Shown here piece after piece: positions 33,063 to 55,306 of a stretch of DNA of 64,000 nucleotides. The notes beneath the pieces were generated by a model. That model was not told the DNA's origin and made no database searches. It worked only from the letters and a program-made list of their open reading frames with translations. A program made the position numbers and the translations under genes. Numbering within the stretch: the stretch's first letter is position 1; each line of letters begins with the position of its first letter. The stretch is from a virus (Duplodnaviria; Heunggongvirae; Uroviricota; Caudoviricetes): IMG/VR virus record IMGVR_UViG_3300011115_000934, positions 33,983 to 97,982 of that record; one strand, 5' to 3'.

Positions 33063-35777
33063 ATGGCAGAAGGTAAAATTATAGGAGGACCTTTTAGCGA
33101 TGAAGTTATAACTCAACTAGATGTGAGAAGTAAAATTGTTTCTAAAGGTACTAGAACTAACGACGACTTGCAGTACATAACTGCAAAGACAGGTTGGGTT
33201 AAACTTACGTCGGGAGTAAATGTAGGAGGTTCTTCTGAACTAGCCAAGAAATATATTATGATTGGTGGTGTTAAAGGAAGGACAGGTACAGATACTTATA
33301 GCAATTTTACAGGAGAAAACGGAAAAGGTTTTAGACCAATGCCAGGTATTACAGGAGTTCAAATAAATTCACTAGGACAATTTGGACAATTAAAAGAAGC
33401 TACAGTCACTTTCAACTGCTGGGACAGATCTCAAATAACAGAACTAGAACTTCTTTTTATGAGACCAGGATTTACAGCACTACTTGAATGGGGCCACAGC
33501 ATATACGCAAAATCAGAAACAAACTTCATAAAAACACCAGAAACAATACAGTCCTTCTTTACTACAGGAACTACAAAGGAGACACTATACAATGAAATAA
33601 AGGCTTTAAAAAAGAAAAGCGGATGTAACTACGAAGGTATGTTTGGCTTCATAAAAAACTTTTCATGGACTTACCGACAAGATGGAGGATATGATTGTAC
33701 AACTAGCTTAGTCTCAATAGGAGAGATTATGGAATCTCTAACAATAGACATAGACACACCTGCAATTACAACAATAGTAGGATCGTCAGGAGGCCAAGCA
33801 AGAATTATACCTGCTACAATGCTACAGGATGTTTTACAAACAGTTCTAGCAAGTCAGTCAAAAAGTGCTTGGCCCGACATACGAACCAAATTCCCAGAGT
33901 TTGCATCTAAGCATATAACCGTTGGAGGAAGAGATACGTTAGATGTAGTAAAGCTATTTTTATCTAGCAAAAAAATAGCAGGTGTAGAAAATAAGGATAC
34001 AGGTCAAAGCTTCCACTACATGTCACTAAAAAGCTTTTGTGAATTAGTAAATACGCTTATTATTGTAGATAATAATAAGAAAAGTGTTATAAGGCTAAAT
34101 ACAGATATACTTCCAATTGGCGGAGACAACAAAACAATGCCTACCTGTAGATTCAGAACTTATAAATTTCATACATCAAGCGATCCAGGAGTTTGTGTTT
34201 TAATGACTGAAGGATCAAAAAACTGGCCTTACGAAGAAGGTCTTATGGCAGAAATGCTATCTAATAGAGAAGGATCTACTGATGAAATTCTTAATATATA
34301 TGTAAATGTAAATTTACTAGAAAGTGCAATGGCAAATCTAATTGCAATGCCAGAGAAGGGTGATAGAAATCTTCTAAATTTAATGAATCCTATCTTTGCA
34401 GAAATAAACTCTGCACTAGGAGAGATAAACGATATAGGATTGCAGTATGAAGAAGAGGAGTTTACATACTATATAGTTGATAGAAAAGTACAAGTAGAAA
34501 CAAAAGATGTTTCTATACTGAATGTTACAGGACTTAAGTCAACTGTCTCACAGTTCAACTTCACCACCAAACTATCTCCAGCCATTACAACTATGTGTGC
34601 AATATCAGCACAAGCAGGAGCAACAGATGTAGGGTTAGAAGCAGGAGCATTGTTAAGATGGAATGAAGGATTAGAGGATAGGATTATTACTAAAAAATCC
34701 ATGAAGGTTGATGAACCAGCTTTTCCAACTGTTCCAACAACTTTCCCAATAGCAGGAATACCACCACCATCAGCAGCTACTCCACCAACACCGGAACAAG
34801 AAAGAGCCACTCAGCAGACTGATAGAAGAAATACAATTAAAAACACACTAGCACAGGTATACAACAGTAAGCAGTACGATAGTGAAGCAGTAGCAGTTGC
34901 AAGAACACAGTATGGACAATTTTCAACAAATTACGTACAGTTTTATGCAGAAAGTGGAGAAAACGCAGGAAACGCAGGACCAGCAGGAATTATTCCTTTT
35001 CAAGTAGGAATTGAAATGGATGGAATCGGAGGTATAAAAATCGGACAAGCCTTTAGAATTAATCAAGGAATAATGCCATCTAAGTATGATGGAGTAGTAG
35101 GATTTATTGTAACTGGAATAGATCATAGTATTGCAGGAAATAGATGGGTAACCAATATAAAAGCACAGACAATTGTACTCAAAGGAACAACAGCGAAAGG
35201 TTCAGGACCAGCTTATTCAAACGACTTTAGTAAAACAGGAGTTTCTCAAACTGAGATAAAGGTAAAAAACTTTACACCATCAACAGCTATAAACTTATCA
35301 GCAGACTGGATAACTCTAGCCTCTCAGCTAATTAGTAGTAAAGAAGGATTTACCCAGACAGCAACTTGGGATATAAATGCATATCGATTGGGATATGGTA
35401 CAGATCAAATTTACGATCCAACTACCAAATCTATTAGAAAAGTAAAAAATGGAGATAGTACGACACCAAGTGCGGCAATTGCAGTACTAAAGCAGGAAAT
35501 AGAAACTACTTACTACGGTAGAGTAGTAGGAACTGGAGGTGCTACTAAAATAGGTAAAGCTGATTGGGAAAAATTAAACAACAAACAAAAAGCAGCTTTA
35601 ATAAGCTATGTATATAATGTAGGTAGTTTAAGGAAAAAAATAAGAGCAGCTGTAGTAGGCGGAGATTATAAACTAGCTGCTGAACAAATACAAGCAGGAC
35701 CTGTAACCGCTGGTGGGAAGATTCTTCCAGGACTAGTAACAAGAAGAGCGCAAGAAGCTTCAATATTTCTTGCATAG
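33063..35777 (+). CDS. Baseplate hub protein with a C-terminal GH24 lysozyme domain
   Basis: N-terminal RPMPGITGV...ATVTFNCW hub domain. C-terminal KEGFTQTATWDINAYRLGYG (E-x8-D), KQKAALISYVYNVG, GLVTRRAQEASIF. Confidence 0.85.
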   Translation: MAEGKIIGGPFSDEVITQLDVRSKIVSKGTRTNDDLQYITAKTGWVKLTSGVNVGGSSELAKKYIMIGGVKGRTGTDTYSNFTGENGKGFRPMPGITGVQINSLGQFGQLKEATVTFNCWDRSQITELELLFMRPGFTALLEWGHSIYAKSETNFIKTPETIQSFFTTGTTKETLYNEIKALKKKSGCNYEGMFGFIKNFSWTYRQDGGYDCTTSLVSIGEIMESLTIDIDTPAITTIVGSSGGQARIIPATMLQDVLQTVLASQSKSAWPDIRTKFPEFASKHITVGGRDTLDVVKLFLSSKKIAGVENKDTGQSFHYMSLKSFCELVNTLIIVDNNKKSVIRLNTDILPIGGDNKTMPTCRFRTYKFHTSSDPGVCVLMTEGSKNWPYEEGLMAEMLSNREGSTDEILNIYVNVNLLESAMANLIAMPEKGDRNLLNLMNPIFAEINSALGEINDIGLQYEEEEFTYYIVDRKVQVETKDVSILNVTGLKSTVSQFNFTTKLSPAITTMCAISAQAGATDVGLEAGALLRWNEGLEDRIITKKSMKVDEPAFPTVPTTFPIAGIPPPSAATPPTPEQERATQQTDRRNTIKNTLAQVYNSKQYDSEAVAVARTQYGQFSTNYVQFYAESGENAGNAGPAGIIPFQVGIEMDGIGGIKIGQAFRINQGIMPSKYDGVVGFIVTGIDHSIAGNRWVTNIKAQTIVLKGTTAKGSGPAYSNDFSKTGVSQTEIKVKNFTPSTAINLSADWITLASQLISSKEGFTQTATWDINAYRLGYGTDQIYDPTTKSIRKVKNGDSTTPSAAIAVLKQEIETTYYGRVVGTGGATKIGKADWEKLNNKQKAALISYVYNVGSLRKKIRAAVVGGDYKLAAEQIQAGPVTAGGKILPGLVTRRAQEASIFLA

Positions 35778-44765: not shown

Positions 44766-46475
44766 ATGGGAGTAGATTACAGTGCCTGGAAACCAGGCGT
44801 AGATTATCCAGACTGGATGAATGAAGTTTCTTTGGCTACAATTTCAAATGGTTATTTATTACCTGATGAGAATCCAAAGAAAGCTTACAGAAGAGTTGCT
44901 GATGCAGTAGCTAAAAGATTAGATCGTCCTGATCTAGCAAATAAGTTTTTCAAGTACATGTGGAAAGGTTGGTTAAACCTAGCTTCACCTGTATTATCAA
45001 ACACCGGAACTGACAAAGGACTTCCAATCTCATGTTTTGGTATAGATACTCCTGATTCGATCAGAGGTATAGGATTAACCAATGCAGAACTAATGAGACT
45101 TACCTCTTTAGGAGGAGGAGTTGGAATTGGACTTGGAAGAGTAAGAGGAAGAGGAGTAAAGATTGGAAATGGAGAAACAGGACAGTCAGAGGGAATTGTG
45201 CCTTGGGCTAAAATATTTGACTCAACTATTATTGCTACAAATCAAGGATCAGTTCGTAGAGGAGCAGCATCTGTAAATTTAGACATCAACCATATCGATA
45301 TAAAAGAATTCTTACGTATTAGAAGACCTCAAGGAGATCCAAACCGTCAGTGTTTGAATTTACACCAATGTGTTTCTATTGACGATAAGTTTATGAAAAG
45401 ATTAGAGCACAGAGATCCGGAAGCAATGGAACTATGGGTTGAGATTCTTAAATCAAGAGTTGAGACAGGAGAACCTTATATTATGTTTAAGGATAATGTC
45501 AACAATGCTAACCCACCAGCATATGTAAAAAACAACTTAGACGTTACAATGACAAACATCTGTTCAGAGATTGCTTTACATACCGATGAAGAACATTCAT
45601 TTGTTTGTTGTTTATCTTCTCTAAACATTACAAGATACGAAGAGTGGAAGGATACTGACTTAGTTGAGACAGCAATCTATTTCTTAGATGGAGTATTGGA
45701 AGAGTTCTTAATTAAAACAAATGGAAAAGATTCTATGATTAGATCTCACCGTTCTGCTAAAAAAGGAAGAGCATTAGGATTAGGAGTTTTAGGATGGCAT
45801 TCATTCTTACAAGCAAAAGGAATTCCATTCACTTCTATTGCAGCAACTTCTTGGACAAATAAAATTTTCTCTCAGATTAAAAACCAAGCAGAAGATGCTT
45901 CTAGAAAATTAGCAGAAGAATACGGAGAACCAGTTTGGTGTAAAGGAACAGGAATGAGAAACACTCACCTAATTGCAATTGCACCTACAGTTTCTAATTC
46001 AACAATCTCAGGAGGAGTATCAGCAGGTATTGAACCAATTCCAGCTAACGTTTATACGTTTAATTCTTCTAAAGGAACTTTCATTAGAAAGAATCCAGTA
46101 TTAGAAAAGTACTTAGAAGATAAAGGACATAACTCAGAAGAGGTATGGCAACAGATTCTAAAAGATAGAGGATCAATTGCAAATCTACCAGAAGACGTTA
46201 TGCCGTTTGACGATAAAGAAGTATTCTTAACATTTGCAGAAATAAACCAATTGGCCCTAGTTGAACAAGCTTCAGTAAGACAGAAGTACGTTGACCAGGC
46301 TCAATCACTAAACTTAGCATTCGATCCAGGAGATAGTCCTAAGTTTATAAACCTAGTTCACCAGACAGCTTGGAAACTTGGATTAAAAACGTTATATTAT
46401 TTACGAACGGATTCTGTCATAAACGGGGACATCGGAAGTAGAACTTCTGAAGACTGTTTAAGCTGTGACGGATAA
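44766..46475 (+). CDS. nrdA: Class I ribonucleotide reductase alpha subunit (no ATP cone)
   Basis: PISCF, TNICSEI, VCCLSSLN, IAPTVSNS, KTLYY, C-terminal CLSCDG. Confidence 0.96.
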   Translation: MGVDYSAWKPGVDYPDWMNEVSLATISNGYLLPDENPKKAYRRVADAVAKRLDRPDLANKFFKYMWKGWLNLASPVLSNTGTDKGLPISCFGIDTPDSIRGIGLTNAELMRLTSLGGGVGIGLGRVRGRGVKIGNGETGQSEGIVPWAKIFDSTIIATNQGSVRRGAASVNLDINHIDIKEFLRIRRPQGDPNRQCLNLHQCVSIDDKFMKRLEHRDPEAMELWVEILKSRVETGEPYIMFKDNVNNANPPAYVKNNLDVTMTNICSEIALHTDEEHSFVCCLSSLNITRYEEWKDTDLVETAIYFLDGVLEEFLIKTNGKDSMIRSHRSAKKGRALGLGVLGWHSFLQAKGIPFTSIAATSWTNKIFSQIKNQAEDASRKLAEEYGEPVWCKGTGMRNTHLIAIAPTVSNSTISGGVSAGIEPIPANVYTFNSSKGTFIRKNPVLEKYLEDKGHNSEEVWQQILKDRGSIANLPEDVMPFDDKEVFLTFAEINQLALVEQASVRQKYVDQAQSLNLAFDPGDSPKFINLVHQTAWKLGLKTLYYLRTDSVINGDIGSRTSEDCLSCDG

Positions 46476-46486
46476 AACTAAAAAAT

Positions 46487-46942
46487 ATGGCATTATTAAT
46501 TACTTCACTATTTCTAGCAATTGTAATTTTTCTACTAACTGTAAAACTAAAAGAGTATGTAGAGGAGGTAGCACAACTTAGAAAGCAAATTGAAGAAACA
46601 GCAGCATCTCATATAGTAGAGAAAGCAAAGGTAAAGAAAGACTCAATGTTTAGATCCTCAGCAGTAAATTGGGGAAAGACAATTGAACACTTTGTACCAT
46701 TCATGTCTAAGTTTCCTGTACCAGCAGAAGATGTGGTTTTCTTAGGGATGCCAATCGACTACGTAGGATTTACTCACACAGATAGTAAAACAAAATGTGA
46801 AGTGCACTTTATTGAAGTCAAGTCAGGAAATGCAGCTTTGATGGGTAAACAGAGAAATATTAAAAAAGCAATTCAAGAGGGAAGAGTTCACTGGCATGAA
46901 ATTGCAGTGGATGGAAACCGAGCAGAAATCAAAGAAGAATAG
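46487..46942 (+). CDS. Holliday-junction-resolvase-related endonuclease with an N-terminal TM helix
   Basis: GKTIEHFVPF...FLGMPIDYVGF...FIEVKSG...QRNIKKAI; PD-(D/E)xK fold. Confidence 0.75.
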   Translation: MALLITSLFLAIVIFLLTVKLKEYVEEVAQLRKQIEETAASHIVEKAKVKKDSMFRSSAVNWGKTIEHFVPFMSKFPVPAEDVVFLGMPIDYVGFTHTDSKTKCEVHFIEVKSGNAALMGKQRNIKKAIQEGRVHWHEIAVDGNRAEIKEE

Positions 46943-46955
46943 CTATTTATTAGAG

Positions 46956-48122
46956 ATGGACGTACTATCTAAAATAAAACAAATGTTATACCCTCTACTA
47001 ATCCTAGGGGGTATTTTGTCTACACAGAGTCAGACCTTTACGTACTCTGGGAATATTTATGGCTCAAATGCAGCAGGTATATCAGGTGTACCAGTCTCTC
47101 TTTACAAAAGGACAACTACTACAACTGCAAATGCAAACACTACTGTAAGAACATTTAAAACTCACGCCAGTAATGGAAGTACAAACCAATACGCTTCCTA
47201 TCCGTCGACTAGAGCAGAAATGGATAGATTGTTTAATACAGCTTATTCAAATACAGTTCTGTGGTGGACAGGTACAGTAAGTGCATTATACTCATTGAAC
47301 TTTAATGCAGCCAGTACACTAACAGCAGGAGGAGCATCAGTACCTAATAACGGTGATTACTACTCAGCAGAAGTTACATTTGTATTTACACCAAAAGAAA
47401 CAGGAACGTACTCATTTGGACTAACCTCGGATGATGGTGGTGACTTATGGTTAATGGGATATGGAAATGTAATTGAATGGTACGGAGGAAAAGGAACTGG
47501 CCAATACTTATACGGAAATGTAAATCTAACAGCAGGTACAGCTTATACTTTTATAGCCAGAATGCAAGAGTATGGAGGTGGTGATGGATTATTGGTATAT
47601 TGGAAAAGACCATCACAAGCCGGATACTCACTACAAACAGATGAGGTAGGAGGAACAACCACTACAACATCGGCTTGGGCAGTACAAACAACCACAACTA
47701 CATCAGCATTAGGAGCTTACTCTTTTTCAACACCCTCAGGAACAGGAGTAGAGTTTTACATTACATTCAATCCTCCAGCATTAACAGTACCAGTTCTTTC
47801 AGATGGAACACTTACAAATAGTATTGTAATAGGAAACACAGCATTAAAATCTGTAGATTATTTTAGATATGATGTAAATGGAGATAACAGATTCACAGTT
47901 TCAGATGTATATTCAATATTGGCTAGAAAATCTGGATTGCTTTCTGCCTTTACTCCAACACCACTTAGTAGAATTTTTAATTCAACAGAATGGTCAACTA
48001 TTAACGTATCGACAGCAAATCTAAAAGTATCGTATCCTGGAGTACAGACAGTAACAATTAACTCTCCTGTATCAGGAGGAAGTTCAAACTACTATGTTAG
48101 TAGATTAGGAAACACTAATTAA
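46956..48122 (+). CDS. Secreted PA14-domain protein with a dockerin-like EF-hand module
   Basis: Start revised to the ATG at 46956 (signal-like LLILGGILSTQSQ). PA14 signature GTYSFGLTSDDGGDLW...MQEYGGGDGL; YDVNGDNRFTVSD. Confidence 0.75.
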   Translation: MDVLSKIKQMLYPLLILGGILSTQSQTFTYSGNIYGSNAAGISGVPVSLYKRTTTTTANANTTVRTFKTHASNGSTNQYASYPSTRAEMDRLFNTAYSNTVLWWTGTVSALYSLNFNAASTLTAGGASVPNNGDYYSAEVTFVFTPKETGTYSFGLTSDDGGDLWLMGYGNVIEWYGGKGTGQYLYGNVNLTAGTAYTFIARMQEYGGGDGLLVYWKRPSQAGYSLQTDEVGGTTTTTSAWAVQTTTTTSALGAYSFSTPSGTGVEFYITFNPPALTVPVLSDGTLTNSIVIGNTALKSVDYFRYDVNGDNRFTVSDVYSILARKSGLLSAFTPTPLSRIFNSTEWSTINVSTANLKVSYPGVQTVTINSPVSGGSSNYYVSRLGNTN

Positions 48123-48191
48123 ACTATATTTATAAAAAGTAAGGTGCATGGGCACTCGGTTGTATTAAACAAATAACTTAAAAACAAAAAA

Positions 48192-49283
48192 ATGAAGAAA
48201 ATTCTTTTAATTTTAAGTGTGATGTTAGTAACACTATCGGGATTTGCACAACAAGTTGCACCAGATAACACTAAACCATACTTAGTATTCGACGCAAGTT
48301 ACAACTTAGCTCCTGTAGCATCAGGAACAAACACGCAAGTTGCAATTTATTACAGCAATCTTAACGCAACAGCTATTAAAGCTATTCAGTTTAGATTCTG
48401 GTATGACAAAACAGTTTTTGATGCTCCAACAGTAACTTATACTGGAGCTGAGACAAACAATGTATTCAACACAAAAGTAAACGCTACAGAAGGAAACGTA
48501 ACAGTTACTTGGGTTTACACAGGAACAAATGCTTCTTTTAATATTGTAAATGGAGCAATGTTCAATGCATCTCTACCATTTAAAGCAGCTTATACCAATG
48601 GTGCAGTAACTGCAATGGCATTTACAGGAGCAACAGCATTCTCAGCTTACGGTACTCTTGCAGCAGGAACAGATACAGCATTAGGATTACAAAACTACGG
48701 AGGTGCATTCACAGAACCAGTATTTAACTATGCAGCTACATTCTTAAATAACCCAACCAATCCTTCAACAGGTATTCCAGTAATCTTACAAAAATCTGCA
48801 AACGGAACAACTTGGACAGATGTAATGACTGTTAATACAGTAACAACAGGAGTAGCAGCATTTACAACTAACTTAGATCAAAACTACTGGCAGATTAGAG
48901 TAAAAGTAGCTCCAGGTACTACAGCACCAGCAGCAATTGCAGCAGCTGATGCAGATATGATTGCTCAAATTGCTACAGGATTACAAACACCAACTGGAAC
49001 TCAATTCTACACTGCTAACCCTAACCAAGCAAACGGAATTACAATTTCAGATTCATATACAGTATTCTCTAGATTGGCTCAAGGTTTAACAACCTATCCA
49101 GGTAACCCTGATATCTTATTCTTTACAGAAGCTCAATACAACACCATTGCAGCAGCTACAACAGATCAATCAGCAACAATTCCAGGAGTTTCAACTTTCC
49201 TTTCAGCTAACATCAATAATACAGTAGCAGCAAATTACTATCTGCTAGTATTAGGAGACGCCAACGGAACAGGTCATAACTAA
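48192..49283 (+). CDS. Secreted cohesin-like domain protein with a C-terminal module paralogous to 46956
   Basis: Sec signal MKKILLILSVMLVTLSGFA; IKAIQFRFWYDKTVF cohesin-like strand; shared ...PGV.T...NYY...LG..N tail. Confidence 0.65.
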   Translation: MKKILLILSVMLVTLSGFAQQVAPDNTKPYLVFDASYNLAPVASGTNTQVAIYYSNLNATAIKAIQFRFWYDKTVFDAPTVTYTGAETNNVFNTKVNATEGNVTVTWVYTGTNASFNIVNGAMFNASLPFKAAYTNGAVTAMAFTGATAFSAYGTLAAGTDTALGLQNYGGAFTEPVFNYAATFLNNPTNPSTGIPVILQKSANGTTWTDVMTVNTVTTGVAAFTTNLDQNYWQIRVKVAPGTTAPAAIAAADADMIAQIATGLQTPTGTQFYTANPNQANGITISDSYTVFSRLAQGLTTYPGNPDILFFTEAQYNTIAAATTDQSATIPGVSTFLSANINNTVAANYYLLVLGDANGTGHN

Positions 49284-49284
49284 T

Positions 49285-50016
49285 ATGGTACGCTATATAA
49301 TCATAGCGTTACTAACAATAAATTCACTCTACTCCCAGGTACAATTTCAAGTGCCTGGGATTACTGTGACTCCCTCCAATACAATAGATCTACCTATAAC
49401 AATCCAAACAAATGGAAATACAGTAGGGAGTTTAGAATTTGCTCTAAATTACGATCAAACAATTTTACAATTCTCAGAAATAGTATTATCAGAAAAAACA
49501 CAGACTTGGTTGACATATGTAATGGATACTGGAAGTGGAAAAGTAAGATGGGGTGGTTATGATAAATCACATGGTCAGCATTCTATCAATACACCAATTG
49601 CATTATTCATATTAAAATTTACTGTCCTAAATCCGAACTGGTTAACAACTCCTATTACAGTTGGAAGAAAGACAGCAGGAGATGTTCAAGGATGGGATAT
49701 CGCAGTAACAAATACAGATGGATATGTAAACTACAACAAAACTGGAATACCAGTTGATGAAACTAGAATTCAAGGAATCATACATCCAAATCCTACAGAT
49801 GGATTAGTAACTGTGGATTTAATATTACCGGTAAGTGGTTTTTATAAAACAACAATTCTTAATCTAAATGGTTCTGAACTAAGAAGAAGAGTAGAACAGT
49901 ACATCAAAGGAGTTAATATCCTAGAAGAGGATCTCACACCTTACCCTAGCGGTACCTATTTATTAAATATAACAACAAGGGACTTTACCCAAACATTTAA
50001 AATTATAAAAAAATAA
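49285..50016 (+). CDS. Cohesin-domain protein with a T9SS (Por) C-terminal sorting domain
   Basis: Signal peptide; VGSLEFALNYDQTILQF cohesin motif; IHPNPTDG...ILNLNG...PSGTYLLNITT...TFKIIKK type-A CTD. Confidence 0.85.
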   Translation: MVRYIIIALLTINSLYSQVQFQVPGITVTPSNTIDLPITIQTNGNTVGSLEFALNYDQTILQFSEIVLSEKTQTWLTYVMDTGSGKVRWGGYDKSHGQHSINTPIALFILKFTVLNPNWLTTPITVGRKTAGDVQGWDIAVTNTDGYVNYNKTGIPVDETRIQGIIHPNPTDGLVTVDLILPVSGFYKTTILNLNGSELRRRVEQYIKGVNILEEDLTPYPSGTYLLNITTRDFTQTFKIIKK

Positions 50017-50019
50017 GCT

Positions 50020-50334
50020 ATGTCAGAAGAAACAAACGAAGGTGGATTATCAGGATTGAAAAAAACCTTAATTGGAACTCTAGGAACTGTTGTAACAGCA
50101 GGAGGAGTATGGTTAACAACACACTTAGGTGGTGGTGAAGCTACAGATAAAGAAGAAGTAAAAACAGAAGTAGCAGCACCTGCAGCAGCAGCACCAGTTG
50201 TTATTAATTTACAAAACAACAACACAAACCAACAAAAACAATCAGGAGGTACACATACCATTGTTAAAGAAAGAGTAATTGAGAAAGCAGCTCCAGTACA
50301 ACAAGCAGCACCTGCTCAAAAAGAATCTTGGTAA
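50020..50334 (+). CDS. Small membrane-anchored protein
   Basis: Hydrophobic LIGTLGTVVTAGGVWL followed by an Ala/Pro/Asn/Gln-rich tail. Confidence 0.6.
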   Translation: MSEETNEGGLSGLKKTLIGTLGTVVTAGGVWLTTHLGGGEATDKEEVKTEVAAPAAAAPVVINLQNNNTNQQKQSGGTHTIVKERVIEKAAPVQQAAPAQKESW

Positions 50335-50337
50335 TAG

Positions 50338-50601
50338 ATGAAAGAAGCTGAAGGTTTTGCAGGTACATTTTTTTCTAAACTAAAAGAGCAATCTTTTACT
50401 ATAATCCTTATGGTAGGAGTTATTTGGTATCAAGGAGTGATGATGGAAGAAAGAGTAGCGTATTGGCAAAAGTTATACGAAGAGAAAGAAGCTTACATTG
50501 AACAAAGTACTAAAGACGACAAAGCGCTTTTATTGAATAGAATAGAATATTTACAACAACAGAGAGACAAATACGTAGAAGATTTACTAGAAAAAAAATA
50601 A
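50338..50601 (+). CDS. Small membrane protein with a coiled coil
   Basis: TM segment FTIILMVGVIWY. Confidence 0.6.
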   Translation: MKEAEGFAGTFFSKLKEQSFTIILMVGVIWYQGVMMEERVAYWQKLYEEKEAYIEQSTKDDKALLLNRIEYLQQQRDKYVEDLLEKK

Positions 50602-50604
50602 AAA

Positions 50605-51561
50605 ATGGCAGAAGAAACTATTGAAGTTACGACAGGTAACGAACAAGTAGGTGCATCAGCAGAAGCACACGCAGGAACAGAAGTAACAGATACATCAGTA
50701 TCAGCAAATGCAGGAGTATCAGCCGAAGCTCATGCCAATGTAGAAAATACAACAGAGGTTGTAGAAGGAGTAGATATCAACTCAGAAGCACACGCTACAG
50801 CAGAAGCATCAGTAGAGGCAGAAGCACAAGCAGGATGGGATGGACAAGACGCATCAGCATCAGCTGGAGTATCAGCTGAGGTAAGAGTAGAGGTAGGAGC
50901 TTCAACAGAAGTAGAAACTGATTACGGAACAGCAGGAGTACATGCCGGAGCATATGCAGAAGCACATGCAGGAGTTGGAGCAGATGCTTCAATAGGAGCA
51001 CACGGTGCTGAAGCAAATGCAGGAGCATCAGTAGGTACATCAGTAGGAGTAGAAGCTGGAGTAACAGCACAATCAGGTGATGTATCAGCAGAAGCTAATG
51101 CAGGAGTATCTGTAGGAGTACAAGCAGGTGCTGAAGTTGGAGGTGGAGCTACTTATGATGATGGAGCTATTACATTAGGAGTTGAAGGTGAATTAGCACT
51201 TTTAGTTGGAGTAGATATAGATGCATCAGTAACAATAGATGTATCAGATGAAGTTGAAGCAGCAAAAGAGGCAGCAGCACAAGCAGCTCAAGCTGCAGCA
51301 GACTTATTGGCATCTCAAGAAGCAGCAGAAGCACAACGTGTAGCAGAAGAAGCAGCTAGAATTGCACAAGAACAAGCAGCAGCAGCTCAAAGAGAATTAG
51401 AAAGACAAGCAAGAGAAGCTCAACAAGCCTATGAAGCAGCTCAAAGAGAATTAGAAAGACAAGCAAGAGAAGCTGAAAGAGTTGCAAGAGAAACTCAAGA
51501 CGCACTTGATAGAGCAGCTAGAGAAGCAAAACATCACTTAAACCCAAAGAACTGGTTCTAA
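50605..51561 (+). CDS. Ala/Gly/Val/Glu beta-strand repeat protein with a C-terminal coiled coil
   Basis: Repeated A.A.AG(V/A)S..A.A alternating pattern, then QRELERQAREA repeats. Confidence 0.7.
   Translation: MAEETIEVTTGNEQVGASAEAHAGTEVTDTSVSANAGVSAEAHANVENTTEVVEGVDINSEAHATAEASVEAEAQAGWDGQDASASAGVSAEVRVEVGASTEVETDYGTAGVHAGAYAEAHAGVGADASIGAHGAEANAGASVGTSVGVEAGVTAQSGDVSAEANAGVSVGVQAGAEVGGGATYDDGAITLGVEGELALLVGVDIDASVTIDVSDEVEAAKEAAAQAAQAAADLLASQEAAEAQRVAEEAARIAQEQAAAAQRELERQAREAQQAYEAAQRELERQAREAERVARETQDALDRAAREAKHHLNPKNWF
51382..51474 (+). repeat. 39-nt direct repeat (AAQRELERQAREA x2)
   Basis: gcagctcaaagagaattagaaagacaagcaagagaagct at 51382 and 51436. Confidence 0.9.
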
Positions 51562-51649
51562 TGGGAAATATAATAATGGGACTTGTGGTTTATGAATGCC
51601 TAAGAGCTATTTTATTAAATGCTGTAGGTAAATATAATAACAGAGAAAG

Positions 51650-52360
51650 GTGAAAAAATTCATAACATTATTATTAATAATATTTAGTTTAACAGGCTCT
51701 GCTCAAAAGATAGGGTCTGTTAAAACTGAAGTATATCAAGCAGATTTTGAAAAGAAACAATCACTGGCTGTGGTATCTGATTATGCTGGGGATGTTGTCA
51801 TTCCTATTCAGATTCTTAAAATTGGTATCAACGAAGAGTTGTACGAAATGTACCCTGAACTAAAAGATAAAAGAGTTGGTTTAGGAGTATCAAATATAGT
51901 ATTAGAATATCTAGAATCTACAAACAGATTTAAGTTTACAGAAGACAGAGAAGAAATAAAACAAAAAATGATTGCCCAACATATAGCTTCAGCTAAAGGT
52001 ATATCAGAAAATAAAATAGAAGTTAAAGGAAATGTTATATTAGCAAAGTATTTTGTTTATATAGAAGTATACGATTTCAGCATAGGTGAGGATGAAGAAG
52101 TTTCAACCTCTGGAGCTGAAATAAGACAGAAAACAATATTAGGGTTACAGATAAGATTTGTGGATGCACAAAGCGGTGAAATAATCACAGGATCAGGATC
52201 CGGTGAAGCAGTTACAGTGAAGAAAGCAAGCCTATTAGACGGACTCGACGATATTAAGTTTAACCAATCAACAATCGGAGTATCTACCAAAAAGTCATTA
52301 GAAACTGCCTCTTCAAGAGTAGTATCAAAATTGATTAAGAAGGGGATATTTCCGAACTAA
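51650..52360 (+). CDS. CsgG-like (curli secretion channel fold) protein
   Basis: GTG start, signal peptide; LGVSNIVLEYLESTNRFKFTEDRE and LGLQIRFVDAQSGEIITGSGSG match CsgG-family motifs. No lipobox Cys seen. Confidence 0.7.
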   Translation: MKKFITLLLIIFSLTGSAQKIGSVKTEVYQADFEKKQSLAVVSDYAGDVVIPIQILKIGINEELYEMYPELKDKRVGLGVSNIVLEYLESTNRFKFTEDREEIKQKMIAQHIASAKGISENKIEVKGNVILAKYFVYIEVYDFSIGEDEEVSTSGAEIRQKTILGLQIRFVDAQSGEIITGSGSGEAVTVKKASLLDGLDDIKFNQSTIGVSTKKSLETASSRVVSKLIKKGIFPN

Positions 52361-53847
52361 TGAAAAAATGGATTTCTTTATTTATATTTTTTGTTTTCCT
52401 ACAGGCGTCAGCCCAGTACAGCTACACCTATACAGACCCATGTACACTTCAGTTAAAGAGCGTATTTGTACCTGCTGGAGGTGGTGTAGTAGTAAACTAC
52501 TTCGATAACCACAATACATTCTCAGCAAATGACTTCTCCTCAGGAGCATTTGATAGTTGGATCACTCAAGTATCCCAACAAAATTCTAACTCACCTTGCC
52601 AAACAGTTACAACCACTTTAGTAAATAACATAACATCAACCGTAGTATCAAACACAGTTGGCATATTAACAAACGTTGTAGCAATATCTTCTCTAGCTCA
52701 ATCAATGGCTAGTATAAGTAGTTCTATAGGAAGTTCAATGTCTGCAACAGCAGGTGGTATTTCAAATACCAGCATTGGAAATGCAGTAGACAATAACCAA
52801 AGTAATTCAAATGGAAAATCAGATAGTAAAAACGGAGGAAGTACAGGAAGTGCTGGAAGTAATCAAACAAACAACCAAAATGAAGGAAGCACTACCCCTA
52901 GTACATCAACTGGAGGAAATACTAACCCAACAGGAGGAACAAGCACAAGCCAAGGAGGAAACCCTTCAAGTCCAAATCAACCAACTCAAGGAGGAGAACA
53001 AACGTCTCAACCATCTGTAGAAGGAGGAACATCCTCAGGGACAACAGGTAATACAGCAAACTCAATTTCAAATTCTGTAGATGGGGGATCTTCATCAGGA
53101 GCATCAAGCAATACAGCAAACTCAATTTCTAACTCTATAGATGGAGGAAGTAGTGAAGGTGGTAGTTCATCAGGAGGTTCATCTAGTTCTAAAAAACAAG
53201 CCAATGCTAAAACATCCTCAGGAAGTTTAATTGCCTCAGGAGATATGGTTGCCATTTCAAGTACGGATGGAACAACAGCAAACCAATATAAGATAGTAGC
53301 AAGTATAACACATGCTAATACTAGAGGTACAAGAATTAAAGGAGTACTGTTCAATTATACAACAGGAGCAAATAATGTAAATGTAACTCTATATAAATCC
53401 TGGATTAATAAAACAAGAAGTTTAAATACCATTGCAGCAAATTCTACTATGATGGATTTTGAAAAAAATATATTTAATACTACAACAGGATTAGAATCTT
53501 ACAAAATAAATAAAAGCATAACAGCAATGTTTGGTATGAATTTTACAGCAGGGAAGATGGGTGAGAGAAGCTTCTATAACTTATCTGCAGTAGGAGGAGG
53601 ACATGTTAGTACAAAAGTAACTGATAGAGTTTCAACTAGCTTTTTAGTTCTAGCAATCTATTCTCCGTTCACTCAATTCTATGATGGAAAGTGGTGGAGT
53701 GCAGGAGTTTTATTTGTACCATTTAATTCATGGGATTTTAAAATAACAAAGACGTTCAAATATAATGTAAGCTTTACAGGAGTTTATCAAATGAATGAAA
53801 GTTTTCTTAATTATCAAATATTAACCGGAGGCAAAATATCATTCTAA
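52360..53847 (+). CDS. Secreted protein with an S/G/N/T low-complexity linker and a probable C-terminal outer-membrane beta-barrel
   Basis: Signal peptide, two Cys, duplicated NTANSISNS(V/I)DGGSS, amphipathic strands ending in C-terminal Phe (GGKISF). Confidence 0.6.
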   Translation: MKKWISLFIFFVFLQASAQYSYTYTDPCTLQLKSVFVPAGGGVVVNYFDNHNTFSANDFSSGAFDSWITQVSQQNSNSPCQTVTTTLVNNITSTVVSNTVGILTNVVAISSLAQSMASISSSIGSSMSATAGGISNTSIGNAVDNNQSNSNGKSDSKNGGSTGSAGSNQTNNQNEGSTTPSTSTGGNTNPTGGTSTSQGGNPSSPNQPTQGGEQTSQPSVEGGTSSGTTGNTANSISNSVDGGSSSGASSNTANSISNSIDGGSSEGGSSSGGSSSSKKQANAKTSSGSLIASGDMVAISSTDGTTANQYKIVASITHANTRGTRIKGVLFNYTTGANNVNVTLYKSWINKTRSLNTIAANSTMMDFEKNIFNTTTGLESYKINKSITAMFGMNFTAGKMGERSFYNLSAVGGGHVSTKVTDRVSTSFLVLAIYSPFTQFYDGKWWSAGVLFVPFNSWDFKITKTFKYNVSFTGVYQMNESFLNYQILTGGKISF

Positions 53848-54299
53848 TGAAAAAACTATTACTACTATTACCGTTATTGTTCCTACTATCATCAGATACA
53901 GCACCAAAGTGTTACAAAGTAACCAAAGTTACAACCCTAGTAGAAGCACCTGAAATGAAAAAGGAAAGGATCTTATTTGGAATCAAACAGATGACAGAAG
54001 AAATCCTATCTGAAAAACACAACATATGCGAAGATGGAACTCCAGTTGAAGTTGAAATAATGTCAATTGAAGCTCCTTCTACATCTACCTCTTTTGGTCC
54101 ATTTGCAAAAGAGAAAAAAGAAACCATTGTCAAACTTAGAATCATAATTGGAAAAGATGATTACTGGGGACAGGGTAAAGCAAACGTCACAGTTCAGTCT
54201 ACATTCCTAGATCTAAACGACGATAACTTACCATTTAGTAAAACTGCATTTTCAGGAGCAGTTAAAAAAGCTTTGGTCGAAGCTGTTGGAGAAATGTAA
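53847..54299 (+). CDS. Secreted/periplasmic accessory protein
   Basis: Signal MKKLLLLLPLLFLLSS; closes the envelope locus. Confidence 0.6.
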   Translation: MKKLLLLLPLLFLLSSDTAPKCYKVTKVTTLVEAPEMKKERILFGIKQMTEEILSEKHNICEDGTPVEVEIMSIEAPSTSTSFGPFAKEKKETIVKLRIIIGKDDYWGQGKANVTVQSTFLDLNDDNLPFSKTAFSGAVKKALVEAVGEM

Positions 54300-54320
54300 A
54301 TAATTCCGTATCTTTAACAT

Positions 54321-54527
54321 ATGGAAGATAAGCAGTACACCATTACATACAGAAAGCAAAAATACGAACTAGATCCAGAATATTGGGACGAAGAACAGCC
54401 TAATAGTACTAGAGCGTTTCAATTAAGACAGCTTACGTATTGTGTAGAGATAGGAGATTTTACTACTCTAGAAAATAGAATAAACAATATGCTTAAATGG
54501 GGAGGTATAAAAAAAGTAGAGAAATAG
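54321..54527 (+). CDS. Hypothetical protein
   Basis: 68 aa ORF after a CGTATCTTTA promoter-like motif. Confidence 0.55.
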   Translation: MEDKQYTITYRKQKYELDPEYWDEEQPNSTRAFQLRQLTYCVEIGDFTTLENRINNMLKWGGIKKVEK

Positions 54528-54580
54528 TTGTATTTCTTAAATAAAATACCTATCTTATATTATAATCAAAAATCAAATCT

Positions 54581-54736
54581 ATGTCAAAGAATTCAACAAA
54601 GAGTCAGTATGAACAACTAATGGCTTGGTTACCAACTTTAAACCAACCTAAAGTAGCAAAAGAACAGTCATCAACCAAATTCAGCAAAGCTGATCACTAC
54701 AAATCAAAAGGAGCATATGGCAAAGCAGGTAATTAA
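54581..54736 (+). CDS. Small basic protein (51 aa; absent from the ORF track)
   Basis: Manually translated MSKNSTKSQYEQLMAWLPTL...YGKAGN*; follows a promoter-like motif. Confidence 0.55.
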   Translation: MSKNSTKSQYEQLMAWLPTLNQPKVAKEQSSTKFSKADHYKSKGAYGKAGN

Positions 54737-54983
54737 ATTTTACGCAGATTGGTGTGGACCTTGTACAGTATACGCACCAGCTTTTACTAAAGTAAGAGAA
54801 GAGTTAGAAAGTGATGAGATTACCTTCTTAGAAATTAATGTTGAGAACGATCCAGAGAACTTATCAGGACAGTACGGAGTAAGAGGAATTCCTCATACAG
54901 TTGTAATTACAGAGGGAGCTGAAACGCAAGCCAGATCCGGAAGAATAGCAGAAGACGAGTTAAAGCAATTTATTTTAAACTAA
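54717..54983 (+). CDS. trxA: Thioredoxin
   Basis: FYADWCGPC active site, GVRGIPH cis-Pro loop. Confidence 0.93.
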   Translation: MAKQVIKFYADWCGPCTVYAPAFTKVREELESDEITFLEINVENDPENLSGQYGVRGIPHTVVITEGAETQARSGRIAEDELKQFILN

Positions 54984-54994
54984 AAACTAAAAAA

Positions 54995-55306
54995 ATGTTA
55001 CGTAATCCAAACACCATCCCAGTAGGGGATACAGTTATAGAAGATCCAACACTAGAACCATACTTCATTGTTAACTCTAGCTCAGGAGGATACACAGTGT
55101 TCGAAAAAGTAAATAGAGGCAAGGACGATAGAGCGTATCTACGATCAGTTTGTTATCCATCAACATTCAATCATGCATTAAAAGTTATTGCCAAAGAAAA
55201 GCTAAATACAAGTGAGAACAATCACTACACTTCAATTCAAGAATATATTTCTAAATGGGAATCAATTACCAAATCAATTGAGAATGCAACTTTAATAGAG
55301 CTGTAA
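54995..55306 (+). CDS. Hypothetical protein
   Basis: 103 aa, phage-like codon usage. Confidence 0.6.
   Translation: MLRNPNTIPVGDTVIEDPTLEPYFIVNSSSGGYTVFEKVNRGKDDRAYLRSVCYPSTFNHALKVIAKEKLNTSENNHYTSIQEYISKWESITKSIENATLIEL

What the first reader, a model, noticed from the sequence alone, without database searches (positions are those of the whole stretch)
46956..54299. Phage-encoded host-envelope locus: cohesin/dockerin-like modules, a T9SS cargo, a CsgG-like channel and a beta-barrel-like protein in one operon
Seen: nine contiguous co-oriented genes between the replication module and the small-gene region. Most carry Sec signal peptides or TM anchors, and none looks like a virion or replication protein. 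Established: T9SS exports CTD-bearing proteins in Bacteroidota; cohesin and dockerin form high-affinity scaffolds; CsgG forms outer-membrane secretion pores. Inference: the phage builds a multi-protein structure on the infected cell surface using host Sec/T9SS/BAM plus its own pore. Possible roles are superinfection exclusion, grazing defence, or aggregation and glycan capture by the virocell. This is the best candidate for an undescribed system in the window.
Basis: partly seen in the sequence, partly recalled or inferred. Interest (0 to 1): 0.88.

Follow-up and report, generated by a model that had tools for sequence, protein, structure and literature searches.

The report
Phage-encoded lectin display and envelope module
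A large Flavobacterium phage carries a conserved, phage-specific gene set that probably sends a cellulosome-style chain of a sugar-binding protein, an adaptor and a type IX secretion anchor into the host envelope, next to three outer-membrane-type proteins; what it does has not been tested.

Summary
The nine genes are real and sit at the stated coordinates in a complete 162-kb relative of Flavobacterium phage immuto.

**Domain calls**
- Confirmed: PA14 in O1, cohesin plus a type A T9SS sorting domain in O3, and a CsgG fold in O7.
- Borderline: the cohesin in O2.
- Supported by structure only: a roughly 12-strand beta-barrel in O8.
- Consistent but weak: the shared C-terminal module of O1 and O2 is dockerin-like.

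**New here**
- O2 and O3 are one fused protein in 49 of 76 related viral loci.
- The sugar-binding head of O1 is swapped between close relatives (PA14, C-type lectin, GEVED, LamG) on a constant tail.
- O9 is a shortened paralogue of O7.
- O2-O3-O4-O7-O8-O9 plus an O1-type protein travel together in about 76 loci. O5 and O6 are optional.
- The module is essentially absent from 201 Flavobacteriaceae genomes.

- O7 lacks the lipid-anchor cysteine.
- Its hairpins are short and acidic, so a CsgG-type pore is doubtful.
- "One operon" is not shown.

**Context**
- Phage T9SS cargo and phage CsgG genes are already published separately.
- This scan has already noted the same module in other genomes.
- The function is untested. 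Surface lectin display for receptor masking or cell capture is my inference.

The parts
46956..48122 (+). O1: exported lectin protein. It has a signal peptide, a conserved N-terminal beta-sandwich segment, a PA14 head (residues 131-227), a beta-sandwich remainder, and a C-terminal ~115-aa dockerin-like module (residues ~264-388).
   Evidence: Pfam PA14 scores 29.2 bits against a cut-off of 24. Compared with the immuto orthologue, only residues 4-63 and 241-388 are conserved; the middle is a C-type lectin there. The tail is homologous to the O2 tail (E 8e-8; alignment A2).
48192..49283 (+). O2: exported adaptor. It has a signal peptide, a cohesin-like domain (43-151), a CarboxypepD_reg-like beta-sandwich, and the dockerin-like module (238-363).
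   Evidence: Pfam Cohesin scores 21.2 bits against a cut-off of 24.1, and 24.1 bits in the six-frame search. The family profile's only PDB hit is the ScaC cohesin 5lxv (E 0.23). O2 is fused in frame to O3 in 49 of 76 related loci.
49285..50016 (+). O3: T9SS-sorted anchor. It has a signal peptide, a cohesin (19-125) and a type A C-terminal sorting domain (166-243).
   Evidence: Pfam Cohesin 31.9 bits and Por_Secre_tail 29.8 bits. TIGR04183 37.9 bits. The family profile hits solved cohesins 2vn5 and 1g1k (E 1.7e-6 and 3.6e-6) and solved T9SS CTDs such as 8glk_D.
50020..50334 (+). O4: small, probably single-pass membrane protein with a low-complexity tail and a conserved C-terminal E-S/P-W. It always lies directly upstream of O7.
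   Evidence: Present in essentially all related loci, often overlapping the O7 start. The alignment shows a conserved GLKKT motif, a weakly hydrophobic Gly/Thr-rich segment and a terminal Trp. The hydropathy scan did not flag it as TM.
50338..50601 (+). O5: optional 87-aa protein with one candidate TM segment and a coiled coil.
   Evidence: Found in only a minority of loci. In L033 and L049 it lies after the endolysin gene instead. There is a weak PHROG holin hit (E 0.0014).
50605..51561 (+). O6: optional Ala/Glu/Val/Gly-rich repeat protein with a C-terminal coiled coil and no signal peptide.
   Evidence: Present in about 10 of 80 loci and always together with O5; displaced in L033 and L049. 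No family hit. The only Atlas neighbours are phage hypothetical proteins.
51650..52360 (+). O7: exported CsgG-superfamily protein. It is not lipidated here, and its hairpins are short and acidic.
   Evidence: 18 of 34 homologues hit Pfam CsgG, and 7 hit LpoB. The family profile hits E. coli CsgG at E 6.6e-5. The AF2 model has pLDDT 83. Foldseek matches CsgG at E 5e-8, and VIA-align gives Z 13.8, with 175-194 residues aligned across the top CsgG chains. No Cys lies at the signal-peptide junction, and the hairpin is short.
52360..53847 (+). O8: signal peptide, a ~60-aa two-Cys domain, a ~150-200-aa S/G/T/N-rich linker, and a C-terminal ~12-strand beta-barrel-like domain (about 283-495) ending in Phe.
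   Evidence: The Atlas model matches DUF481, OmpG, autotransporter and other barrels (TM 0.67-0.78 over about 200-212 residues). No Pfam or PDB sequence hit. A distant homologue (L082) keeps both end domains but lacks the linker.
53847..54299 (+). O9: exported 150-aa shortened paralogue of O7 (CsgG/LptE-like alpha/beta fold), with two Cys.
   Evidence: hhalign of the O9 family against the O7 family gives probability 96.8%, E 2.1e-10, over 116 columns. Atlas feature leads point to Lipoprotein_16, DUF4410 and LptE. It is conserved after O8 in all loci, including the distant L082.

Best explanation
This is a conserved, phage-specific envelope module made of two linked parts.

**Part A: a cellulosome-style chain.** O3 (cohesin plus type A CTD) is exported by host Sec and then by the host type IX secretion system. 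It serves as the surface anchor. O2 (cohesin-like domain plus dockerin-like tail) plugs into O3. O1 (PA14 lectin plus dockerin-like tail) plugs into O2. The infected Flavobacterium cell would then display a glycan-binding head. In most relatives O2 and O3 are one polypeptide, and the head is exchanged between close relatives.

**Part B: O4, O7, O8 and O9.** These are a probable inner-membrane protein with a periplasmic tail, two CsgG/LptE-fold periplasmic proteins, and a ~12-strand outer-membrane barrel carrying a small domain on a long flexible linker. Together they resemble a barrel plus accessory assembly (PelBC- or LptDE-like) more than a CsgG pore. This part is the natural candidate for anchoring or exporting O1 and O2, which have no CTD.

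**Likely purpose (inferred).** The module remodels the virocell surface with a host-glycan-specific lectin. That could mask receptors or exclude superinfecting phages, or it could hold neighbouring host cells or particles close.

**What is shown:** gene content, domains, fusion and split states, head swapping, co-conservation, and restriction to phages.

**What is inferred:** cohesin-dockerin pairing, T9SS export, surface location, the role of part B, and the biological purpose.
For: - **Domains:** (cohesin and CTD; PA14).
- **Shared tail:** O1 and O2 share a ~115-aa tail. The only informative sequence and fold matches of its first ~60 residues are dockerins.
- **Module count:** the whole 162-kb genome holds exactly two dockerin-like modules (O1, O2), two cohesins (O2, O3) and one CTD (O3), which fits a linear chain.
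- **Fusion:** O2 and O3 are fused in 49 of 76 loci. The split falls in the linker, and O3 has gained its own signal peptide.
- **Head swapping:** Lectin_C, PA14, GEVED, Laminin_G_3 or Ig_7 heads sit on a constant tail.
- **Synteny:** the core order is kept in about 76 loci even where the flanking genes differ.
- **Ancient sub-unit:** the order small protein - O7 - O8 - O9 is kept in contigs with only 29-35% O7 identity.
- **Export signals:** Q-rule signal peptides are found in most orthologues.
- **Phage restriction:** the O7 family occurs in 2 of 201 Flavobacteriaceae genomes, and the dockerin-like module in 0 of 201.
- **Fold assignments:** O7 has the CsgG fold, O9 is an O7 paralogue, and O8 resembles a barrel.
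- **Lysis genes elsewhere:** a separate, canonical-looking lysis cassette lies 35 kb away.
Against: - There is no Pfam Dockerin hit. The PDB profile and fold matches are not significant (E 0.15-6).
- The O2 cohesin is borderline.
- O1 and O2 have no CTD and no demonstrated way across the outer membrane.
- O7 lacks the lipid anchor and membrane-length amphipathic hairpins, so part B has no proven channel.
- No expression, localisation or binding data exist. The only hint is that contigs of a relative occur in one metatranscriptome, which may contain DNA.
- In 48 of 80 loci the module lies within a few kb of the endolysin gene, which allows a lysis-linked reading.
Confidence: 0.55

Rival explanations
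1. These are two unrelated units that merely travel together. One is a T9SS-exported lectin scaffold (O1-O3). The other is an independent outer-membrane set (O4, O7, O8, O9) with its own job, such as solute or macromolecule uptake or envelope conditioning, as proposed for the CsgG/CsgF genes of pelagimyophages.
For: - The unit small protein - O7 - O8 - O9 occurs on short distant contigs, and no cohesin was seen in the 3 kb available.
- O1-type genes move from before O2 to after O9.
- Phage CsgG clusters without cohesins are published (PMC7029224, PMC9004378).
Against: - Both units are co-present and colinear in essentially all of the ~76 loci with enough flank, across different genomic contexts.
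- The distant contigs are too short (about 3 kb) to show that cohesins are absent.
Confidence: 0.2
2. The module is a lysis accessory. It would weaken or gate the outer membrane, or time lysis, in place of or alongside spanins. O5 would act as a holin or antiholin, and the CsgG-like and barrel proteins would perforate the outer membrane.
For: - A GH19/PG_binding_1 endolysin lies next to the module in 48 of 80 loci, and O5-O6 follow it in L033 and L049.
- O5 has a weak PHROG holin hit (E 0.0014).
- A role in lysis control was proposed for phage CsgG (PMC9004378).
Against: - This phage has a separate cassette 35 kb away: a holin-like gene, the GH19 endolysin, a multi-TM protein, and an overlapping spanin-like pair.
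- Lectin heads, cohesins and a T9SS signal have no obvious role in lysis.
- O5 and O6 are dispensable in most loci.
Confidence: 0.1
3. The proteins are virion components, such as adhesive decoration or accessory receptor-binding proteins with exchangeable lectin heads.
For: Head swapping between close relatives resembles receptor-binding protein cassettes.
Against: - Six proteins carry cleavable Sec signal peptides that obey the host Q-rule, and one carries a T9SS CTD. These route them out of the cytoplasm, where tailed virions assemble.
- No PHROG structural hit.
- No other protein in the genome carries a cohesin or dockerin-like module that could tether them to the particle.
Confidence: 0.05

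Closest known systems
Cellulosome-type cohesin-dockerin scaffolds (Clostridium/Acetivibrio/Ruminococcus scaffoldins, adaptor scaffoldins, anchoring scaffoldins)
   Same: - A cohesin domain recognisable by Pfam and by profile matches to solved cohesins.
- A two-helix F-hand-like module at the C-terminus of the 'cargo' proteins.
- An adaptor that carries both a cohesin and a dockerin-like module.
- An anchoring protein with a cell-surface sorting signal.
   Different: - It is encoded by a lytic phage.
- The cargo is a lectin, not an enzyme.
- The anchor is a T9SS CTD rather than SLH or sortase.
- The dockerin-like module fails the Pfam model, has a degenerate first loop, and carries an extra ~60-aa subdomain.
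- Binding is unproven.
Phage-encoded T9SS type A CTD cargo of 'Cryophage' (Bellas et al. 2020, PMC7468147)
   Same: A Bacteroidota phage encodes proteins with T9SS type A sorting domains. These include a PA14 protein, and they are variable between phage variants.
   Different: In Cryophage the CTD sits directly on each enzyme or PA14 protein. Here a single CTD-bearing cohesin is proposed to carry CTD-less partners, and the set is coupled to CsgG-fold and barrel genes.
Phage-encoded CsgG/CsgF cluster of pelagimyophages and OM43 phage Melnitz (PMC7029224, PMC9004378)
   Same: CsgG-family genes without curli subunits, in a variable region of large aquatic myophages. Their function is unknown, with proposals of uptake, 'sibling capture' and lysis control.
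   Different: - No BLAST-level similarity: tblastn of O7, and of a 35%-identical homologue, against 50,697 phage records finds only the immuto phages.
- No CsgF.
- The hairpins are short.
- The partners are a beta-barrel protein and a mini-paralogue.
PelBC and LptDE outer-membrane machines (a barrel plus a CsgG/LptE-fold lipoprotein)
   Same: The O7 model also matches PelC and LptE (Z 8-10). Genes for CsgG/LptE-fold proteins flank a barrel gene, which suggests a barrel-with-accessory architecture.
   Different: This is fold-level resemblance only. O7 and O9 are not lipidated here, and no polysaccharide or LPS pathway genes are present. The assembly has not been modelled.

Membership tests
Cohesin (PF00963) | Score above Pfam gathering threshold | tested here: met
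   O3 scores 31.9 bits against 24.1, and 33.4 bits in the six-frame search. O2 scores only 21.2 bits, or 24.1 bits, exactly at the cut-off, in the six-frame search, so O2 is borderline.
Cohesin (PF00963) | Profile similarity to solved cohesin structures over the whole domain | tested here: met
   The O3 family profile hits 2vn5 at E 1.7e-6 and 1g1k at E 3.6e-6 over about 137 positions. The O2 N-terminal profile hits only 5lxv (ScaC cohesin) at E 0.23.
Cohesin-dockerin pair | Specific binding of the dockerin-like module to the cohesin | not testable with these tools
   This needs pull-down or ITC. The one complex prediction gave no verdict and is recorded under Tried and rejected.
Dockerin (PF00404) | Match to the Pfam dockerin model | tested here: not met
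   No Dockerin hit for O1 or O2, even at E<=1.
Dockerin (PF00404) | Duplicated F-hand: two Ca-binding loops (DxNxDxxxxxxD), each followed by a helix | tested here: inconclusive
   Alignment A2 shows a conserved second loop plus helix: DVNGDNRFTVSD in O1, degenerate NPNQANGITISD in O2. The first segment keeps the helix (xDAxxxNxxVLG) but has a degenerate loop.
Dockerin (PF00404) | Dockerin fold | tested here: inconclusive
   The AF2 model has pLDDT 71.5 and the other four models are poor. All meaningful Foldseek hits are dockerins (5nrk, 4dh2, 4fl4, 1ohz; target TM 0.5-0.6, rmsd 2-3.5 A), but E is 0.6-6. 7 of 12 weak PDB profile hits are dockerins.
T9SS type A C-terminal sorting domain (TIGR04183 / PF18962) | HMM score above cut-off, at the extreme C-terminus of a protein with an N-terminal signal peptide | tested here: met
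   TIGR04183 scores 37.9 bits against 23, and PF18962 scores 29.8 against 27, over residues 166-243 of 243. The profile also hits solved CTDs. The signal peptide has Q at +1.
T9SS type A C-terminal sorting domain (TIGR04183 / PF18962) | Secretion depends on the host T9SS | not testable with these tools
   This requires gldK, sprA or porV mutants.
CsgG (PF03783) | Sequence membership | tested here: inconclusive
   O7 itself has no Pfam hit. However, 18 of 34 homologues (23-69% identical) hit CsgG (best E 1.9e-17) and 7 hit LpoB. The family profile hits E. coli CsgG at E 6.6e-5.
CsgG (PF03783) | CsgG fold | tested here: met
   Foldseek E 5e-8. VIA-align Z 12.6-13.8, rmsd 2.9-3.7 A, 175-194 residues aligned, clearly above LptE and PelC at Z 8-10.
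CsgG (PF03783) | N-terminal lipobox cysteine (outer-membrane lipoprotein) | tested here: not met
   The window O7 reads LTGSAQ with no Cys. Most remote homologues, and some orthologues, keep L-x-G/S-C.
CsgG (PF03783) | Two amphipathic hairpins long enough to build the 36-strand transmembrane barrel | tested here: not met
   The TM1 equivalent is 4-6 residues shorter and carries E-D-E-E on both faces. The TM2 equivalent is about 11 residues shorter. The whole O7 family shares this. This was judged from sequence and the monomer model only.
CsgG (PF03783) | Curli partners CsgA/B/E/F nearby | tested here: not met
   No curli family hit in any of the nine proteins. O6, the proposed 'amyloid cargo', lacks a signal peptide and is absent from most loci.
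Outer-membrane beta-barrel (O8 C-terminus) | Barrel fold with a C-terminal aromatic residue | tested here: inconclusive
   The Atlas model of residues ~272-495 matches DUF481, OmpG, autotransporter and other barrels (TM 0.67-0.78). The protein ends in ...ISF. There is no sequence family hit, and I could not fold it myself.
PA14 (PF07691) | Score above gathering threshold | tested here: met
   29.2 bits against 24, over residues 131-227. There is also a weak hit to the RsgI3 PA14 structure 6qe7.
Phage lysis cassette (holin, endolysin, spanin) | Endolysin with adjacent holin- and spanin-type genes inside the locus | tested here: not met
   There is no endolysin in the window locus. The GH19 endolysin, with holin-like and overlapping spanin-like genes, lies at genome position 122.8-124.9 kb. 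O5 has only a weak holin hit.

The most novel reading that the evidence does not exclude
A self-contained, phage-encoded 'lectinosome'. The phage brings its own cohesin-dockerin scaffold, a T9SS anchor, exchangeable glycan-binding heads, and a dedicated outer-membrane assembly (a barrel plus two CsgG/LptE-fold subunits plus an inner-membrane tether). The host cell then displays a host-glycan-specific lectin coat during infection. This would be used to mask receptors on the virocell and its debris, or to capture neighbouring host cells ('sibling capture').
Probability: 0.3. Interest if true: 0.85.

Novelty: new variant of a known kind. Interest (0 to 1): 0.66.

Why it matters
If the chain assembles as inferred, it would be the first cohesin-dockerin-type display system known from a virus. 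It would also show a phage using the host type IX secretion system to carry partners that lack a sorting signal.

The module is common in freshwater and brackish viral contigs. O7 has 4755 database relatives, and the loci come from contigs of 4.6 to 308 kb. Its lectin head is exchanged between near-identical phages, which is the signature of a host-interaction determinant.

It also gives the puzzling phage CsgG-like genes a concrete genetic context. A cultured system, the immuto phages on Flavobacterium sp. LMO8, makes all of this testable.

Tried and rejected
- **Complex prediction.** O3 cohesin (residues 19-165) with the O2 dockerin-like tail scored 0.23 against a mark of 0.32, so there was no verdict. 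This counts neither for nor against binding.
- **Direct searches with nothing useful.** PDB sequence searches with O7 and O3 alone. PHROGs on the nine proteins gave only weak hits. hhalign of the O2 cohesin-like region against the O3 family found no meaningful match. The O8 barrel profile against PDB and Pfam found nothing.
- **Promoter motifs at chance level.** The sigma-70 scan, the Bacteroidetes -7 motif TAnnTTTG, GATAAATA and AAATATAATAA.
- **Other negatives.** The single-protein scan found one MAG contig, probably phage. The Bacteroidetes O-glycosylation motif D[ST][AILVMT] is not enriched. The genome has no reverse transcriptase, so the lectin heads are not DGR targets.
- **O6 as a curli-like cargo of O7: rejected.** It has no signal peptide, is absent from most loci, and is displaced to the endolysin region in others.
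- **Module as this phage's lysis system: rejected.** A separate cassette exists elsewhere in the genome.

Full report
**Context**

The window is positions 33,983-97,982 of a complete 161,982-bp IMG/VR phage record with direct terminal repeats. The locus region (window 46000-55000) is about 79% identical in nucleotides, over the 47% that aligns, to the Flavobacterium phage vB_FspM_immuto isolates (Immutovirus, host Flavobacterium sp. LMO8, Baltic Sea). All ORFs of at least 120 aa lie on the + strand. Nineteen tRNA genes follow at 56.8-63.8 kb. Upstream of the locus are a UvsX-like recombinase, an exonuclease, a DnaB helicase and RNR beta/alpha.

**Observation**

Nine tightly packed ORFs (gaps of -1 to 88 nt) occupy 46956-54299. 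I call them O1 to O9.

- O1, O2, O3, O7, O8 and O9 have N-terminal signal peptides.
- In the window, five of those six expose Gln after a small-x-small site. A crude pattern finds this in 61/68, 72/75, 24/26, 68/72, 60/71 and 64/73 orthologues respectively.
- This is the Bacteroidetes Q-rule for signal peptidase I substrates (PMC5837995). It has been noted before in Porphyromonas phage proteins (PMC10367356).
- O4 and O5 each have one weakly hydrophobic candidate TM segment. My 19-residue hydropathy scan flagged neither, and no dedicated predictor was available. O6 has no export signal.

"One operon" is not shown, because the promoter and terminator scans are at chance level.

**Domain calls**

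- **O1:** PA14, 29.2 bits against a cut-off of 24.
- **O3:** Cohesin 31.9 against 24.1, Por_Secre_tail 29.8 against 27, and TIGR04183 37.9 against 23. A profile of 24 O3-type sequences hits the solved cohesins 2vn5 and 1g1k (E 1.7e-6 and 3.6e-6) and solved T9SS CTDs.
- **O2:** Cohesin is borderline. It scores 21.2 bits and 24.1 bits, exactly at the cut-off, in the six-frame search. Its family profile's only PDB hit is a cohesin, at E 0.23.

**The dockerin-like tail**

O1 and O2 share a C-terminal module of about 115 aa (pairwise E 8e-8). An alignment of 34 O1-type and O2-type tails shows three elements:

- a helix segment (xDAxxxNxxVLG);
- an EF/F-hand-like loop plus helix (DVNxDxxITISDxYxIFxRxxG);
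- a beta-rich extension of about 60 aa.

Pfam Dockerin does not match. The profile's weak PDB hits are mostly dockerins (7 of 12, best E 0.15). A moderate AF2 model (pLDDT 71.5) finds only dockerins among its meaningful Foldseek matches (target TM 0.5-0.6, rmsd 2-3.5 A, E 0.6-6). "Dockerin-like" is therefore consistent but not proven.

**Comparative genomics**

A scan of IMG/VR with O7 returned 80 loci at 66-98% identity, from contigs of 4.6 to 308 kb.

- **Core.** tblastn of all the window proteins shows that O2, O3, O4, O7, O8, O9 and an O1-type protein are present and colinear in essentially every locus with enough flank. This holds even where the RNR and small-gene flanks are different.
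- **Optional genes.** O5 and O6 occur in only a minority of loci. In L033 and L049 they lie after the endolysin gene.
- **Movable gene.** The O1-type gene sits before O2 in immuto-like phages and after O9 in the others.

Three further observations bear on function.

First, O2 and O3 are a single protein of about 630 aa in 49 of 76 loci. They are split only in the immuto-like clade, 27 of 76. The break falls in the linker after a conserved GDANGTG motif, and O3 has a signal peptide where the linker used to be. The fused L049 protein still shows Cohesin, Por_Secre_tail and a CarboxypepD_reg-like domain. This is Rosetta-stone evidence that O2 and O3 act together.

Second, the head of the O1-type protein is exchanged on a constant N-terminal segment and tail:

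| Locus or phage | Head |
|---|---|
| This window, L007, L078 | PA14 |
| immuto isolates and many loci | C-type lectin |
| L019, L075 | GEVED |
| L049, L055, L069 | Lectin_C plus Laminin_G_3 |
| L030 | Ig_7 plus Lectin_C |

Phages with 95-96% identical RNR carry different heads.

Third, the whole genome holds exactly two dockerin-like modules (O1, O2), two cohesins (O2, O3) and one CTD (O3). This fits a linear chain O1 -> O2 -> O3 -> T9SS.

**O7, O8 and O9**

*O7 has the CsgG fold.*

- O7 has no direct Pfam hit. It has 4755 relatives in the 5.8-billion-protein collection, and JGI names some of the roughly 92%-identical ones CsgG.
- It has only 237 clusters at 50% identity.
- Of 34 diverse homologues, 18 hit Pfam CsgG (best E 1.9e-17) and 7 hit LpoB.
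- The family profile hits E. coli CsgG at E 6.6e-5.
- The AF2 model (pLDDT 83) matches CsgG best: Foldseek E 5e-8 and VIA-align Z 12.6-13.8 over 175-194 residues. LptE, PelC, FlgT and PqiC follow at Z 8-10.

*O7 lacks pore features.*

- The window O7 has no lipobox Cys (LTGSAQ). Most remote homologues and some orthologues have one.
- The hairpin equivalent to CsgG TM1 is shorter and carries E-D-E-E on both faces.
- The TM2 equivalent is about 11 residues shorter. Both hairpin features are shared by the whole family.
- A CsgG-type 36-strand pore is therefore doubtful.

*O9 and O8.* O9 is a shortened paralogue of O7 (hhalign probability 96.8%, E 2.1e-10). O8 consists of a signal peptide, a two-Cys domain of about 60 aa, a variable S/G/T/N-rich linker, and a C-terminal domain. 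The Atlas model of that domain matches 12-14-strand outer-membrane barrels (TM 0.67-0.78). It has no sequence family.

*The sub-unit is old.* The order small protein - O7 - O8 - O9 is kept on marine and other metagenome contigs where O7 is only 29-35% identical. There O8 lacks the linker.

*O4* is a conserved, probably single-pass membrane protein with a low-complexity tail ending in an invariant Trp.

**Restriction to phages**

- Among 50,697 isolate phage records, only the immuto phages carry O7.
- The O7 family profile matches 2 of 201 Flavobacteriaceae genomes. One of these is a MAG whose matching contig I take to be a phage contig.
- The dockerin-like module matches none of 201 genomes, while the same profile does find both copies in the phage's own genome.

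**The lysis question**

A GH19/PG_binding_1 endolysin lies within a few kb of the module in 48 of 80 loci. In this genome the endolysin is 35 kb away. There it sits in a canonical-looking cassette: a holin-like gene, the endolysin, a multi-TM protein, and an overlapping spanin-like pair. I therefore rank a lysis role low.

**Expression**

One freshwater metatranscriptome contains contigs of a roughly 90%-similar relative. They cover O3-O5, O6-O7, O7-O8, O8 and O9-O10, at depths similar to the flanking genes. DNA carry-over cannot be excluded, so this is only a hint.

**Literature**

- Phage-encoded T9SS type A cargo, including a PA14 protein, was reported for "Cryophage" (PMC7468147).
- Phage CsgG/CsgF clusters without curli subunits are known from pelagimyophages and phage Melnitz. 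Uptake, sibling capture and lysis control have been proposed for them (PMC7029224, PMC9004378).
- I found no paper describing a phage cohesin-dockerin scaffold or this combined module.
- This scan has already noted the same module in other genomes.

**Interpretation**

What is shown: a conserved, phage-restricted set of exported proteins with the domains listed above, the fusion and split states, the head swapping, and the synteny.

What is inferred:

- O3 is exported by the host T9SS and anchors O2 and O1 through cohesin/dockerin-like contacts.
- The lectin head is displayed on the infected cell.
- O4, O7, O8 and O9 form a barrel-plus-accessory assembly that anchors or exports the CTD-less partners.
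- The purpose is receptor masking, superinfection exclusion or cell capture.

The weakest link is how O1 and O2 cross the outer membrane.

Noticed in passing
own genome 122.8-124.9 kb (outside the window; locus L085:1095-3112): A canonical-looking lysis cassette. It holds a 103-aa membrane protein, a 203-aa GH19 endolysin, a 141-aa multi-TM protein, and an overlapping pair: a 117-aa protein with an N-terminal TM and coiled coil, and a 132-aa protein with a signal peptide and coiled coil. The pair resembles i-/o-spanins.
   Followed up: partly
window 46487-46942 (+): O0 is a 151-aa protein with an N-terminal TM helix. It is 56-93% identical to what the immuto record annotates as an archaeal Holliday-junction-resolvase-like endonuclease. 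immuto has an extra EndoG-type nuclease gene between it and the module, which is absent here.
   Followed up: partly
L049:8707-9057 and 34 other loci: An extra 116-aa membrane protein gene (weak DUF456 hit) lies between O7 and O8 in most of these 35 distant loci (upstream of O7 in L031 and L032). It is missing from the window and from the immuto-like clade.
   Followed up: partly
window 51566-51576 and 51630-51640 (+): Two exact copies of AAATATAATAA lie 64 nt apart in the 88-nt O6-O7 spacer. The motif is not enriched elsewhere in the window.
   Followed up: partly
window 33063-35777 (+): A 904-aa protein with a C-terminal endolysin-like domain (phrog_7, E 4.9e-15). It may be a virion-associated lysin.
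   Followed up: no
window 50795-51070 (-), 53007-53354 (-), 49956-50261 (-): Antisense ORFs of 91-115 aa lie opposite the low-complexity parts of O6, O8 and O4. They have extreme Leu/Pro/Glu composition and are almost certainly not genes.
   Followed up: no
L049 (308-kb contig), L071 (306 kb), L039 (271 kb): The same module occurs on jumbo-phage-sized contigs. L049 also encodes a class II aminoacyl-tRNA-synthetase-like protein about 1 kb upstream of the scaffold gene.
   Followed up: no
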